In this document: positions 5,910-37,842 of the stretch, piece after piece | Position numbering within the stretch: position 1 is the first letter of the stretch | Layout of the letters: each line of letters opens with the position of its first letter | From: Eledone cirrhosa | Taxonomy: Eukaryota | Assembly (NCBI GenBank): GCA_964016885.1 | Contig: OZ024741.1 | Span: forward strand, 297,848,001-297,912,000 | DNA length: 64,000 bases | Direction: 5' to 3' | The notes under the pieces: model-generated | What the model was told of the DNA's origin: nothing | Database searches by the model: none | The model's input: only the letters and a program-made list of their open reading frames with translations | Position numbers and translations under genes: made by a program

Positions 5910-5912
<3 letters not shown>

Positions 5913-6104
5913 ATTGGAGGTGGTAAAAACCAGTTAGACCATTACTCACCAGAGTACTCGCTACTTGGGGTAATAGAGTGGGAAATATGAAAAAAATTCA
6001 GGACCCCGACAGCTGAGCTCCGGCCGTTTCAACGGCTAGATCCGAACTGAGTTCAGATCTAGCCTTTGAAACGGCTGGAGCTCAGCCGTCGGGGTCCTGA
6101 ATTT
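5910..6104 (-). mobile_element. PLE-type terminal module with 111-bp fold-back palindrome (5994-6104)
   Basis: The arms contain GAAACGGCTGGAGCTCAGCCGTC (HHR 3' half). The tail is homologous to 12171-12235 and abuts (TA)n. Confidence 0.6.
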
Positions 6105-6174: not shown

Positions 6175-7107
<933 letters not shown>

Positions 7108-9128: not shown

Positions 9129-10185
<1,057 letters not shown>

Positions 10186-10703
10186 CCACAGACACGTGTA
10201 TTTTTAACGTGTAGTTCTCAGAAAGATTCAGCGTGACGGCTTTGAATTACAGGTACAACCTATTTTTGCCAACCTACTCACTAAGCCACGCGCCTTCACA
10301 ACATCGCCACCACATCCATCAACACACAACTTCCACACCACGCCACCATCTTTTTCTTTCTTACTTTTCTTTCTCCTCACTGAAACCCTTTTTCTTGGTG
10401 TTGGTCCTCAAAAATCCTTCCCTTCCATTGTAGCAATTGGATAGTTTCAAGTTTCGTATTGACGGGGAGTGGCGGGGAAAACCCAGATACTGTGCATGAT
10501 AGGATAACGGTAAGTGCATGTTTTTTCTTCCCTCTCTTTCTCTTTCTCTCCCTCTCTCTCTCTCTCTATCTATCTCTCTGTACACACACACACACACACA
10601 CACATATGTATATATATATATTCGTGGTTTACTATGGAAGGTACCAAAAGCAGCACTCTATGCTAAGGCAGAGTGTATATATTTTTATGAGACTTTGGTT
10701 TTA

Positions 10704-10810
10704 CTTGATTGACAAATCTGATGAGCCGACTGGACTGGGTTCTCGTCTATAACATTAACACGGATCCTGATCCACCCATCGTGAAACGGTCGTAACTATG
10801 CATAATCAAT
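10704..10810 (+). ncRNA. Decayed hammerhead ribozyme-like motif
   Basis: CTGATGA at 10718 and GAAACGGTCGTA at 10783; stem I pairing is poor. Confidence 0.4.
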
Positions 10811-10812
10811 AA

Positions 10813-10864
<52 letters not shown>

Positions 10865-12074: not shown

Positions 12075-12110
<36 letters not shown>

Positions 12111-12115
<5 letters not shown>

Positions 12116-12240
12116 AAAATGTTTGATCCCGACGGCAGAGCTCTGCCGTCGGGATCAAACATTTTCCTATTACCCACACTACTACCCTAAGTATTGAGTA
12201 CTCTGGTGCGTTATGGTCCATCTGGTTCCTCCTTCGTTAT
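12111..12240 (+). repeat. Perfect 60-bp palindrome (12111-12170) plus PLE-type tail
   Basis: ataggaaaatgtttgatcccgacggcagag|ctctgccgtcgggatcaaacattttcctat; the tail is related to 5910-5990. Confidence 0.9.
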
Positions 12241-12291
12241 ACATACATACATACATACATTCATTTTATTAAGGCTAATTAGTGAGTCTTC

Positions 12292-12340
12292 TTTCTCTGG
12301 AGTTTCGCCTGTTTATCACAGGGTCATCAGACCAGGACTA
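12292..12340 (-). ncRNA. Partial hammerhead motif
   Basis: CTGATGA-C-CCTGT-gataa-ACAGG-C-GAAA-CTCCAGAG; cleavage triplet not intact; same family as 19874-19918. Confidence 0.5.
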
Positions 12341-12439
12341 ACGTTTCCACCTTATATAATGTATATATATTTACCTTGAGTCTTCCTTTATTTATACTGT
12401 GTCTGCTATTGAAACGTTAATTCTTGTCTGATTACCCTG

Positions 12440-13196: not shown

Positions 13197-13498
13197 AATT
13201 GAAAAAGTGAAGAATAACATGGTCAACAGTACAAAAAAGGGGAATTTATTTACAGTCTAACAATTGTTTCTCTGATTGAGTTGTCTAAAAATTGCTGAAC
13301 ACTAGAAGCAGTGCCACTCAATTTTAAATACGATGCTAGCTCAATCATATCAGAGACCATCGTATTTGAAATTGAATGGCACTGCTTCTAGTGTTCAGCA
13401 ATGTTTAGACAATTCAATCAGAGAAACAATTGTTAGACTGTAAATAAATTCTCCTTTTTTTTGTACTGTTGGCCATGTTATTCTTCACTTTTTCAATT
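13197..13498. repeat. ~140-bp-arm fold-back containing a decayed HHR (13255-13357, minus)
   Basis: Arms 13197-13335 / 13358-13498. The minus strand reads GTCT-CTGATA-TGATTGAG...CTCAATCA-GA-GAAA-CAATTG-TT-AGAC. Confidence 0.8.
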
Positions 13499-14112: not shown

Positions 14113-14430
14113 CACTGGCTGGGTTGAGAAAGAGACCAAGAGATAGAAATTGAGTGAAAGTAAGAGAAAGTAAGAGTCACTGAGACCCAAAGGGTCTGTG
14201 AAAAGCAATAGTTTACTTGTTTACTCGATCAAGAAGCGCTCCGAACTACTGCTTGGCCTGATCTAAGGCAGGCTATTTATCTATGTCGCTTCATCTGCCT
14301 TTAAGACTTGAGAACAAAGGGCTGACCTTTCGAGGTCGTCCAATCTCAGACCTGTTGACTCCCAATAGGAGATAACACAGAAAATGACCGTTAAATGTCA
14401 CCCAGAGATAAAAGCGGGGACAGATTTCGC

Positions 14431-14472
<42 letters not shown>

Positions 14473-15866
14473 AAATTTCTATAGAAAGGAACCTAATAAC
14501 CTCGATTCATTATTTAACTCCAGAAGAAATCCCCCCTTTAATAAAAACTTAGCACATTTTGAAAATGAATTAACTAAAATTATACGAGGACTTAAATTCA
14601 AAACAAACCCTTATCGAGGTCAGGGACACCTTATCAACCTTAAGAATAAAATTCTTCTAAAAACGTTTTAGTTCATTCTGACAAAACAAACAATTTATAT
14701 GGCGTAAGTAAGGATAAATATAACCTTAACCTTAAAGAACTAAGAAAAAATTATCGTAAAACTACGCACGATAATCTTGATTCTATTAATAGAGAAGCAT
14801 ATGAGATAATAACCATACTCGGTATTGAGAAAAAAACAGAACCCTTCTTCCCAAGAATCCCGAGGATTAATCTGAAGGATCATAAAAGAAATGTTCGAAC
14901 TGACTTGCCTGTAAGACTAATTGCCCTTTCTAAATCTGACCTAGGGGTTGTTAGTAAATCCATCTCGGATAGAATTATCCCACAGGTTAGGTTTAAATCT
15001 CAACTAAATTTATGGTTGGGTTCATCCGATGTAATAAACTGGTTCAATGACCTAATTAATAAAAACAAACTAAAATTTATTCAATTAGACATTGCTAGCT
15101 ATAACTCCACTATTTCTCCCTCACTCCTAAACAAGTCTCTCACATATGCGTTAAAATACACGGACATCACTGATGAAGAAATTAACATCATTCTCACCGC
15201 AAGGAAAACCATCTTGGAATTTAACAATGAATATTGGTCAAGAGCGGATACTTCCAACAATTTCGACATCACCATGGGTTTGTCGGATTCAGCTCAACTG
15301 ACCGACTTGGTTGGAATGTTCATCTTGAACTCTTTAAATCGGAAAATTCCTCAACTTCGCTGTGGAATTTATCATGATGATGCTATTTTTACTGTCTCTA
15401 ATTGTAACAAAGTAAACTTTAATATTATTAAGAAAAATATACTCGATCTATTTAAGCATCTTAACTTAAAAATTGAATTCGAGAATAATGATAAATTAGC
15501 AAATTTCCTGGATATATCCCTTAATCTAGATACCGGCCTATATTACCCATATCATAAGGATAATGAGAACTTAAATTACGTTAACTTTAAATCTAACCAC
15601 CCTAATAATGTTAAAACTGCTATAGTCAGAAGTGTGAAAAAAAGAATTTCTAATTTATCCTCTAACAAAGATATCTTCGAAGCTAACGCCAATTATTATA
15701 ATAATGCGCTATCTAGGGCTGGATATCTAGACAAAATTAGGTATACTAAGGAAACTAATCTAGTAATGCAGCTAGTAATAATTATACCACTAACAAAAGG
15801 AGGAGACCTAGATATAAAAATATCCTTTGGTACAACGCTCCCTTCTCTCTTTCCGTTATTAATAAT

Positions 15867-15956
15867 TGTTTCTACGTTAGGAACAAGGCCAGCAATTACC
15901 CAGTACATTACTGGTACTTTATTTTATCGACCCCGTAAGGATGAAAGGCAAAGTTA
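15867..15956 (-). mobile_element. 5'-truncated SINE A inserted in the PLE
   Basis: 16-bp TSD ttccgttattaataat at 15851-15866 and 15957-15972. Confidence 0.9.
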
Positions 15957-17441
15957 TTCCGTTATTAATAATATCCCTAAATTATTTTTAGGGCTCTATA
16001 TAACAGCTTCCCTCCTTCACATATATATAGCAAGATATTCAATAAGCATACTATTAAATTCTCATACTCCACTACCTCGAACATTTCTAAAATTATCTCA
16101 AGACATAATTCTAAAATATTAAAGAATAACACATATGCATCCAACCATGAGAGTCATAATAATAACACTATAAGGCCCGACGTCAATGTAAACTCTAGGC
16201 AAAATAACACAAATATAAATACGACGTCAAACGTAACTTTGAGAAATACATCAAATAGATGTAAATCTAGAAACTTTAGCACCCCCTTTAGTTAATTCCA
16301 CCACTCCAGTTCCTAATATAATTAACCCTGGGCCACTTGCCAATAACACTGTAAATAATCTTAATCGTAAATGCAACTGCCCTATTAGAACTAATTGTCC
16401 TCTTAGTAATTTCTGTCTCGATAAAAACGTAGTATACGAATGTAAAGGGGTAACTAGTACCAATACCTATACCTACATTGGCTCTACTTTACCTATTTTA
16501 AAGCAAGATTCTATAATCTTTCTTCTTCATTTAAATATTCACTTAAAAGGACCAGCACCGCACTCTCAGAGCTTATTTGGTCCTTAAAAGACAAAAACAT
16601 TAATTACGAAATTTCTTGGCGTAAAATCTACAACGCATCTCCATACTCCAATGCTTCCATATCTAGTGTTTGTAATTTATGACTAGTTGAAAAATTTACC
16701 ATTATCTCGAATTTCAACTCTATAATAAATAAAAGAACAGATTTATTTGGTCTTTGCAATCATAAACCCTTCAAGACCTTTCACAAAGTATATAGCTAAT
16801 GTCCTATAACTTTTTCCACGAATAACGGTTAATTTTTTTACACATATTTTTTTAGATATATATTCTTTTTACATATATATTTTTTTTAATATATTTTTTT
16901 ACACATATTTCATTATATTCTACAATGTATTAATTTAGTTTTCTCAACATATTTTAAGGCTTTGACCTTTTTTCGATAGCCTTAAATTTTCGCTCAAACC
17001 TTCGTAGATTTTGTAAACAAACTATGACGTCATATGTTTTTCTACGTTTATAAATCATTCTAGCAATTTCCTTTATTTACTTGTTGATATTAAATAATAA
17101 TTAAATAGTATACCCCACATATATGGATTTTTAATAGAAATTTTTAATTTTGACATAGATAGACTATTTTTATTTTTTTATTTTATTTTAATTTATTTTA
17201 TCTAAAAATCTTTTTTATACTTATTTTAATTTAATTTTATTTTATTTTATTAATACATTTTTACACTTCTTAATCCAAGTTTGAGTATTTAAACCCAATA
17301 TAAAATAATATACCCAGTTTCTATATTTTAGACCTCTAATATTTGAATACCATCTATAATATTCGCACATACACCTCATCAATTTACTTTTTAACCGTTA
17401 TCTACAGCTATTTTCATTTTGACAGCGTTCCTGGTCAAAAG

Positions 17442-19644: not shown

Positions 19645-19855
19645 TATATACATCCACATTATTATGGATTGGCAGTATCGGTAGAGGGTCGGACGCCATG
19701 CTTTGACGCATAGAGTTACGGCCCTTGCCATTCTGAGATCAAATCCCGCCGAGGTTAACTTTGCCTTTCATCCTTACGGGGGGTTGATAAAATAAAGTAC
19801 CAGTAATGCACTGGGTAATTTGCTGGTCTTGTGCCAAAAGTAGAAACAATTATTA
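19328..19855. mobile_element. Two SINE A copies in opposite orientation (19328-19492 minus; 19665-19855 plus)
   Basis: Near-identical sequences; the plus copy is flanked by attattatgg on both sides. Confidence 0.9.
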
Positions 19856-20405
19856 TGGTTATTGGTGAGCTTTGTCACTCTAAATTTCGCCTGCGCACTC
19901 ACAGGGTCATCAGCCATGCCTGAAACGTAGATGTAAACATGAAACTTACTATGTGTGTGCGTCTATTCTTAGGATACGTTATTCGTCTCAATGACTGCTG
20001 GTTCGTGGTCTCTTGTCTGTTGTCTGTTGGCATAGTCCGTGACCAGAAGGTGAGAGCCAGTGAGGCCAGGAGAGAGCGAGAGAGAGAGGTAGAGTAAAAG
20101 TGAATTGGCTACATCGTTAACACGGACTGCTTGCTTCGGTCTGGCTGCTGGGTTCCCCAAGTCCTTGTATTTATAATAACCCTATAGCTAGAAGGATGTG
20201 TATATGGGGTTGATTTATGAATAGCCATCTGTGTTTCCTCTGTCTACAAGCTGGGGTCACAGGTCAAGTGGTATGTACGTTTACCATCGTTGTCTCTTGA
20301 CAAGACAATGGTGGGAACCACCCAATAATGGGTGGTCCCAGAGGCGAGAACTCTTAGATTCGGTTTCGAATCTTTGCGAGTAAGACATATGAGTATTCTA
20401 TTACA
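19856..20405 (-). mobile_element. ~550-bp structured non-coding LTR/pLTR-like module ending in an HHR motif
   Basis: The minus strand starts TGTAATAG, has three consecutive hairpins (20282-20381), a TATAAATA, and CTGATGA-C-CCTGTG-agtg-CGCAGG-C-GAAA at 19874-19918. Confidence 0.5.
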
Positions 20406-37458: not shown

Positions 37459-37842
37459 AAAATTAGAAGTTTGAAAATTATGACAATGCAAAATGGGTGA
37501 ATAAAGAATGAAACAAGATGTTATGTGTTTTACCTTAATTTATTTACATGTCCTGATATTTCAAGATTAAGATCTCTTCTTCCGAGGAAAATAAAAGGGT
37601 CTAATCCAGTGTTCAATGTAGGGCCCTATACCATGCTGGCGGAAGTGGTTTTGATCTTCCACCAGCATGGTATAGCACGTTCCATCGAACATCGGATTAG
37701 TCCCTTTTATTTTCCTCGGAAGAAGAGATTTTAATCTTGAAATATCAGAACATATAAATAAATTAAAGTAAAACATATAACAGCTTGTTTCATTCTTTAT
37801 TCATCCATTTCACATTGTCGTGGTTTTCAAATTTCAAATTTT
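37459..37842. repeat. ~190-bp-arm imperfect fold-back
   Basis: Centre ~37650; arms such as ctcttcttccgaggaaaataaaaggg / cccttttattttcctcggaagaagag. Confidence 0.88.

What the first reader, a model, noticed from the sequence alone, without database searches (positions are those of the whole stretch)
12111..12240. Related element folded back exactly at the palindromic stem III
Seen: a perfect 60-bp palindrome whose centre is ACGGCAGAG|CTCTGCCGT, followed by C-GGGATC. This is the counterpart of the stem III/GUC segment in the 5994-6104 element, and the tail (gagtactctggtg..tggtc) is shared. Two relatives therefore invert at two different HHR helices, which independently supports helix-primed fold-back.
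Basis: partly seen in the sequence, partly recalled or inferred. Interest (0 to 1): 0.75.

Follow-up and report, generated by a model that had tools for sequence, protein, structure and literature searches.

The report
Penelope stub joined at palindromic loop
This perfect DNA palindrome is a real but rare form of a very common short, mirror-image insertion of a Penelope-like jumping gene; its thousands of sister copies likely show that two DNA copies were made from the two ends of one cut, ran to the capped start of the element's RNA and were joined head to head, rather than one copy folding back on a ribozyme helix.

Summary
The 60-bp palindrome is real, and its 20-bp core recurs at 75 loci. 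It is the end of a Hydra-type Penelope-like element (13,257 exact tail matches): a 5'-truncated inverted arm, a one-sided tail, and part of a type-I U3-A8 hammerhead motif. This architecture is published. The 5994 element turns in loop II, not on a helix, at a fixed site where most family joints lie: 7,331 loci against 116 at stem III. That site is initiator-like and carries an extra G on either or both arms (43 of 50 listed spacers are C-N-G), the signature of cap copying. Either arm can reach further, and an in-register snap-back at GAGCTC has P<0.01. Best reading: two internally primed cDNAs run off the capped RNA end and are joined head to head, here through GAGCTC. No start site was measured. 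Unreviewed scan notes reached the same reading elsewhere in this genome and in other genomes.

The parts
12078..12113 (.). (TA)n target tract; its last bases overlap the start of the inverted arm (TAT shared)
   Evidence: sequence; (TA)n borders nearly all copies
12111..12143 (-). Short (tail-less) arm: inverted copy of the element from the fixed internal point CCTAT back to loop III; inferred cDNA primed at the inner start site
   Evidence: outer end at the same reference base (r745) in 46 of 62 inverted copies
12138..12143 (.). Self-complementary hexamer GAGCTC of hammerhead loop III, shared by both arms: the joint
12138..12170 (+). Sense arm: loop III remnant, stem III 3' strand (12145-12148), predicted cut after C12150, stem I 3' strand (12151-12155, with a G-to-A change at 12154 mirrored at 12127), up to CCTAT. 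No catalytic core, so not a complete ribozyme
12171..12240 (+). One-sided tail (about 70 nt here, about 80 in most copies) ending at GTTAT, the inferred outer start site of reverse transcription; in longer copies the sequence runs on into the 5' region and ORF
   Evidence: L081 continues into the ORF
12240..12260 (.). (TACA)n / degenerate TA tract on the right flank
   Evidence: sequence
5912..6048 (-). Sister-family element, tailed arm, reaching exactly to the +1 site
6049..6049 (+). Single extra G between two complete arms; absent from the family template (T at -1); inferred cap-derived
   Evidence: same joint in L208, L229 and, with C, L219
6050..6111 (+). Sister-family element, short arm starting at +1

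Best explanation
The palindrome is a stub insertion of a Hydra-type Penelope-like retroelement, likely made when both ends of a cut (TA)n tract primed reverse transcription at two fixed internal sites of the element's RNA, and the two cDNAs were likely joined head to head through the self-complementary hexamer GAGCTC. Shown: the parent element, two fixed outer ends about 80 nt apart, a fixed inner wall at an initiator-like TTAGT site in hammerhead loop II in two families, a non-template G in front of that site on either or both arms, and symmetry between the arms. Inferred: the wall is the capped transcription start, the G is a copied cap, the two cDNAs normally run off there and are joined blunt or with a few extra bases, and in about 1-3% of stubs, this one included, both ends are shortened to loop III and anneal over 6 bp before fill-in. 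The hammerhead contributes only a convenient self-complementary word; neither its helices nor its cleavage are needed.
For: Parent: RT and C-terminal GIY-YIG frames between inverted ends. 62 of 90 unselected copies have an adjacent inverted arm, with the outer end at r745 in 46 of 62; the further-reaching arm stops at r683-687 in 40 of 62. Joints near +1: 7,331 loci (reversed control 9); at stem/loop III: 116 (control 2). Template base at -1 is T in 21 of 22 uninterrupted copies, yet one-base spacers between complete arms are G/C in 21 of 23 listed. S-N-S spacers are C-N-G in 43 of 50 listed and G-N-C in 1. Next to (TA)n, the non-T base before +1 is G in 16 of 24 listed loci. The G is on the tailed arm in 9, on the short arm in 8, with 3 unassigned of 20; CAG 9, CTG 10, with 1 unassigned of 20. 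The sister family has the same site 18 nt before GAAA despite a different loop II. Intermolecular GAGCTC duplex -6.4 kcal/mol; in-register snap-back P=0.007. In vitro, a PLE protein cuts and extends both strands and starts at two internal sites bounding the tail (PMC11167929, main text read). An extra G marks cap copying in full-length L1 insertions (PMC11702581, passages).
Against: The start site and cap were not measured. The sequence cannot tell annealing during insertion from a later deletion between the two GAGCTC copies of a longer hairpin. This copy has a rare G-to-A variant on both arms; of 12 other copies with it on the tailed arm and a legible short arm, only L018 has it on both (read by eye). 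That fits self-templating or arm conversion as well as a variant source. Joints through stem III proper (59 loci) can snap back (-4.9 kcal/mol) and keep the loop on the tailed arm in 19 of 29 (4 of them assigned by eye), so some snap-back may occur. 10 of 62 copies reach upstream of the wall, and long copies turn inside the ORF, so a second class, primed in the downstream repeat, exists. The stem-III search pattern holds more CpGs, so 116 is probably an undercount.
Confidence: 0.6

Rival explanations
1. Same twin-primed origin, but this copy was inserted as the usual longer hairpin centred at +1 and later lost its middle by a deletion between the two GAGCTC copies, which are direct repeats across the hairpin.
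For: Gives exactly the observed sequence; 38 of 50 listed joints in this region use the hexamer; long DNA hairpins are deletion-prone (own knowledge).
Against: Most long hairpins in the family survive with near-perfect centres (665 loci with 0-4 nt between complete arms), and most joints show no microhomology. No direct test was possible.
Confidence: 0.22
2. Helix-primed fold-back: one cDNA stalls, snaps back on a hammerhead helix and copies itself.
For: The centre coincides with loop III; arms within a copy are more alike than between copies (mean distance 1.15 against 2.09 +/- 0.12 shuffled, 40 copies); both arms share a rare variant here; snap-back on stem III proper is stable. Self-priming at PLE junction palindromes is already proposed in print (PMC3846280, Discussion read).
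Against: A zero-loop centre cannot prime within one strand (P=0.007). The 5994 element is not on a helix. Stem-III joints are about 1.6% of those near +1. The tail-less arm reaches further in 35 of 62 copies and holds the loop in 10 of 29 stem-III joints, which a fold-back of the tailed cDNA cannot give. The fixed outer end of the short arm is unexplained.
Confidence: 0.1
3. A ready-made hairpin master (non-autonomous element), or a self-primed antisense RNA, is copied whole, and the centres erode afterwards.
For: Very high copy number of short stubs; self-priming on an antisense template is proposed in PMC3846280.
Against: Joints are very diverse; the extra G sits on either arm equally; each subfamily has matching arms. 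Many independent masters would be needed.
Confidence: 0.05
4. Assembly or library artefact.
For: No read or contig was shown to span this locus; fold-back chimeras occur in libraries (own knowledge).
Against: 75 loci with subfamily-matched arms and the biological end at CCTAT|(TA)n; raw reads cross a sister centre in three runs.
Confidence: 0.03

Closest known systems
EN+ Penelope-like element insertions with an adjacent inverted 5'-truncated copy and a one-sided tail (Craig et al. 2021, PMC8557442, Fig. 2 legend; Arkhipova et al. 2013, PMC3846280)
   Same: Head-to-head inverted arms, a tail on one arm only, a palindrome at the junction, a microsatellite target.
   Different: The tail is about 80 nt, not 30-40. 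Most copies are stubs of 130-210 bp. The published explanation is self-priming, possibly on an antisense template; here the junctions point to a capped sense start.
Hydra clade of PLEs (PMC8557442, section and supplement rows read)
   Same: C-terminal GIY-YIG without CCHH, CxCX5C linker, CxxC and CxH around the EN end, (TA)n targets, a hammerhead motif.
   Different: The hammerhead core is U3-A8 and stem III is longer than in the Hydra-1_Obim row. DKT reads DQT in the one copy seen, and RWK is unreadable. No tree was built.
PAc Poseidon element in vitro (Frangieh et al. 2024, PMC11167929)
   Same: Two internal start sites bounding the tail, both strands extended, AT-rich target, ribozyme cleavage not needed.
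   Different: That work does not describe how inverted copies are joined, or a cap signature. Here each target junction shares TAT with the element.
L1 twin priming and the cap-derived G of full-length insertions (PMC11702581, passages)
   Same: Both target ends prime; the inner ends are joined by end-joining; extra G at a complete 5' end.
   Different: L1's two cDNAs cover adjacent, mostly non-overlapping parts. Here both cover the same 5' stretch from fixed starts, giving a palindrome, and both can carry the G.
PLE type-I hammerheads with palindromic loop 3 and the U3-A8 core variant (Cervera and de la Pena 2014, PMC4209133, passages)
   Same: U3-A8, G10.1-C11.1, long helix II, short helix I, palindromic loop 3.
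   Different: The window copy holds only the 3' third of the motif and cannot be a ribozyme by itself.

Membership tests
EN+ Penelope-like element | Parent ORF with RT followed by GIY-YIG endonuclease | tested here: met
   RT core (YRDD) and VIY..AYIG frames in L079-L081. Pfam support is weak: GIY-YIG E 0.069, below cut-off; no RT family hit.
EN+ Penelope-like element | pLTR repeated before and after the ORF; inverted truncated copy; one-sided tail | tested here: met
   L081 holds the repeat upstream running into the ORF start, and downstream; 62 of 90 copies are inverted.
Hydra clade | CxCX5C linker before the EN | tested here: met
   Present in L079, L080, L087, L174.
Hydra clade | CCHH motif absent; CxxC and CxH near the EN end | tested here: met
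   One Cys inside the GIY-YIG core; CxxC and CxH near the C-terminus, read by eye.
Hydra clade | DKT and RWK motifs | tested here: inconclusive
   Only L081 shows the N-terminus: DQT, and a damaged RWK region.
Hydra clade | Insertion into (TA)n | tested here: met
Hydra clade | Groups with Hydra elements in an RT tree | not tested
   No reference proteins were loaded.
Neptune clade | CX2-5CxxC linker and CCHH motif | tested here: not met
   The linker is CxCX5C and CCHH is absent; my first guess, dropped.
Type-I hammerhead ribozyme (family motif) | Core with 3-8 pair, GAAA, NUH, three helices | tested here: met
   TTGA-N-AA core in 22 of 24 distinct copies; the three helices appear in the MFE fold, z -2.0, 5 of 200 shuffles as good. 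No Rfam hammerhead match at E<=10 in three loci.
Type-I hammerhead ribozyme (family motif) | Self-cleavage | not testable with these tools
   Hint only: 6 of 90 tailed arms begin at r724-726, around the predicted cut.
Type-I hammerhead ribozyme (window copy) | Complete catalytic core in this copy | tested here: not met
   Core and stem II are absent from 12111-12240.
Cap-terminated cDNA | Non-template G at a fixed 5' end | tested here: met
Cap-terminated cDNA | The end coincides with a measured transcription start | not testable with these tools
   Needs 5'-RACE or CAGE.

The most novel reading that the evidence does not exclude
Penelope-like elements build their inverted ends by twin strong-stop synthesis: a dimeric RT-endonuclease extends both ends of a double-strand cut from two fixed RNA sites to the cap, adds an untemplated base and jumps onto the partner cDNA. 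This would supply second-strand synthesis and explain the C-A-G and single-C centres. The promoter starts inside hammerhead loop II, so the transcript's first repeat lacks a complete ribozyme.
Probability: 0.5. Interest if true: 0.7.

Novelty: new member of a known kind. Interest (0 to 1): 0.5.

Why it matters
How Penelope-like elements make their inverted repeats and tails is named as an open question (PMC8557442), and the explanation in print is self-priming, perhaps on antisense RNA (PMC3846280). This family offers thousands of joints that point instead to two cDNAs from a capped sense RNA, with a base-exact predicted start site and predicted joint sequences that can be tested in the existing in vitro system. 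The palindrome itself is a minor joint class and carries no working ribozyme.

Tried and rejected
Rfam: no hammerhead match in the window (E<=1) or in three loci with the whole motif (E<=10); the miRNA-family matches are microsatellites or hairpins below the gathering score. Pfam: no family above cut-off for three ORF pieces. Sequencing runs: no RNA holder listed. Laying three contig sets and one RAD run on 12105-12420 showed no piece spanning the locus: inconclusive. Neptune assignment rejected on motifs. A C at -1 as a subfamily variant explaining the G/C spacers: rejected, T in 21 of 22 and C-N-G 43 against G-N-C 1. RT stalling at a loop II hairpin as the cause of the wall: disfavoured, since the sister family has a different loop II and the same wall, and stalling does not explain the G. 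A first, looser junction call (64 of 90 inverted; 21/36/7) overextended some arms and was replaced (62 of 90; 19/35/8). Target-site duplications cannot be read inside (TA)n. Sequence look-up in earlier scan findings gave nothing.

Full report
Observation. Window 12111-12170 is a perfect 60-bp palindrome centred GAG|CTC, the only non-microsatellite one over 18 bp in the window; about 5e-13 are expected by chance. It lies between (TA)n and a 70-nt tail followed by (TACA)n. 12138-12227 matches the reverse complement of 5928-6020 at 78.5%. The 20-bp core occurs at 75 loci of the 3.0-Gb genome. The 15 fetched all show the same layout with subfamily-matched arms. In three RAD-seq runs of one study, 5, 4 and 3 reads cross the centre of a 48-bp sister palindrome with even depth; they cannot be tied to a locus, and chimeras are not excluded. 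No piece spans the window locus itself.

What it is. A 24-mer of the tail has 13,257 exact matches. Long copies hold RT and C-terminal GIY-YIG frames between inverted ends. In L081 the tail runs on into the ORF start, so the repeat is the element's pLTR. Motifs fit the Hydra clade as defined in PMC8557442 (section read): CxCX5C linker, no CCHH, CxxC and CxH, (TA)n targets. DKT and RWK are inconclusive, Pfam gives only a sub-threshold GIY-YIG, and no tree was built. I first guessed Neptune; an earlier scan note pointed to Hydra and I checked the motifs. Uninterrupted copies carry a type-I hammerhead motif with a TTGA-N-AA core (22 of 24 distinct copies; fold), the U3-A8 variant described in PMC4209133 (passages). 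Rfam does not detect it. The window copy has only loop III, the 3' strands of stems III and I, and the cut site. The inverted truncated arm, one-sided tail and junction palindromes are published features of PLE insertions (PMC8557442, passages; PMC3846280, passages and Discussion).

Where the family turns. I scored 90 of the first 100 listed tail matches on contig C1; the last 8 were not fetched, and 2 lay inside another region and were not scored separately. The reference was one real copy (r numbers). 62 of 90 have an adjacent inverted arm, whose outer end is r745 in 46. The further-reaching arm ends at r683-687 in 40 of 62, upstream of that in 10 and downstream in 12. None is centred in loop III. 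The tailed arm reaches further in 19, the tail-less arm in 35, and they are equal in 8. Only 5 of 62 joints overlap by 2 nt or more (the trimming rule may hide some). Matched genome-wide patterns (16 fixed bases, gap 0-16) give 7,331 joints near r685 against 116 at stem/loop III, with reversed controls of 9 and 2; CpG decay probably lowers the second count somewhat. Long copies also turn inside the ORF.

The wall at r685. It is the A of TT-AGT in loop II, 18 nt before GAAA; calling it initiator-like rests on my recall of the consensus. D. virilis Penelope has an internal promoter with an initiator in its repeat (PMC2377424, passages). The template base at -1 is T in 21 of 22 uninterrupted copies. 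Among the first 50 of 665 loci with two complete arms, 23 have a one-base spacer and 21 of these are G/C. Among the first 50 of 90 loci with an S-N-S spacer, 43 are C-N-G (a G before +1 on both arms), 1 is G-N-C and 6 are mixed. Next to (TA)n, the 24 listed loci with a non-T base have G 16, C 5, A 3 (first 100 of 443 rows; statistics). The G falls on the tailed arm in 9 and the short arm in 8 of 20 fetched loci (3 unassigned); CAG 9, CTG 10 of 20 (1 unassigned). An extra 5' G is the recognised trace of cap copying in L1 (PMC11702581, passages). I infer a capped start; it was not measured.

The 5994 element. Its family has the same core, cut site and TT-AGT site 18 nt before GAAA, with a different loop II (30 of 33 loci examined). 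The window copy has two complete arms separated by one G at 6049, as in L208 and L229 (L219 has C). It turns at +1 in a loop, so it is not a second case of helix priming.

The 12111 joint. Among the first 50 of 116 joints in this region, 38 have a 6-nt centre (28 exact GAGCTC, 10 with one or two changes), so the hexamer does guide this minor class. A strand ending in GAGCTC pairs its end in register with P=0.007, whereas two such ends form a 6-bp duplex of -6.4 kcal/mol: annealing between strands, or deletion between the two hexamer copies, not snap-back. Snap-back on stem III proper is feasible (-4.9 kcal/mol) and would give the ACGGC joint (59 loci). In 30 fetched loci the loop is on the tailed arm in 19 (4 assigned by eye), on the tail-less arm in 10, and 1 has no tail. 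The 10 need a second cDNA; the 19 allow some snap-back. Arms within a copy are more alike than shuffled pairs (1.15 against 2.09 +/- 0.12; 40 of the 90 copies could be scored), which both models predict. This copy's rare G-to-A change on both arms, shared on both arms only by L018 among 12 comparable loci, is the one point in favour of self-templating or later arm conversion.

Mechanism. Shown: two fixed outer ends, a fixed inner wall, a non-template G on either or both arms, symmetric arms. From the literature: a PLE protein cuts and extends both strands and starts at two internal sites that bound the tail, without needing ribozyme cleavage (PMC11167929, parts 1-2 of 4 read: main text and some methods). 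Inferred: both ends of a cut (TA)n prime in the first repeat of a capped transcript, both cDNAs run off at the cap, and they are joined head to head; trimmed ends occasionally meet at GAGCTC. Joining at insertion 0.6, later deletion 0.22, snap-back 0.1, hairpin master or antisense 0.05, artefact 0.03.

Novelty. The structure is a known kind, and junction self-priming was already proposed in 2013. Six searches of the held library showed no paper tying PLE inversion centres to a capped start. Most subscription journals are not in that library; I looked at supplements only for PMC8557442 (two terms), and read part 1 of 5 of bioRxiv 10.64898/2026.07.22.740005, which did not bear on the joint. Earlier, unreviewed notes of this scan reached the same start-site or cap reading on other stretches of this genome and in other genomes. 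I had written the model down before seeing them, and they are not independent evidence.

Verdict. Observation confirmed; interpretation partly supported; new member of a known kind; interest 0.5, carried by the family-wide junction evidence and not by this palindrome.

Noticed in passing
window 12245-12360, minus strand: A second, unrelated hammerhead-like piece (CTGATGA ... GAAA, canonical core) directly beside the finding; a relative lies at about 19830-19930, minus strand.
   Followed up: no
window 10710-10815, plus strand: Another hammerhead-like motif (CTGATGA ... GAAAC) ending in a (TA)n tract; probably the end of another Penelope-like family.
   Followed up: no
window 14370-16590, plus strand: Broken ORF of another Hydra-like element (SDKT, RT core, CxCX5C linker).
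   Followed up: partly
window 9440-10246, minus strand: Frameshifted transposase fragments that look mariner-like (label from recall).
   Followed up: no
window 13233-13460, 37459-37842, 6269-6718: Long inverted repeats (arms 102-187 nt, 87-95% complementary) with no similarity to this family's end; origin not examined.
   Followed up: no
L091, L099, L103, L110, L116, L158: Tailed arms begin at r724-726, at the predicted ribozyme cut; may record cleaved RNA, but microhomology could explain some.
   Followed up: partly
L034-L063 upstream flanks: A TATA-like word lies about 60 nt before the +1 site, too far for a normal TATA-to-start spacing; a few arms end about 30 nt after it (r650-655), possibly a minor start.
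   Followed up: no
L200: A stub with two tail-less arms, i.e. both ends apparently primed at the inner site.
   Followed up: no
L136: The two arms carry different subfamily markers, which would need two different RNA templates.
   Followed up: no
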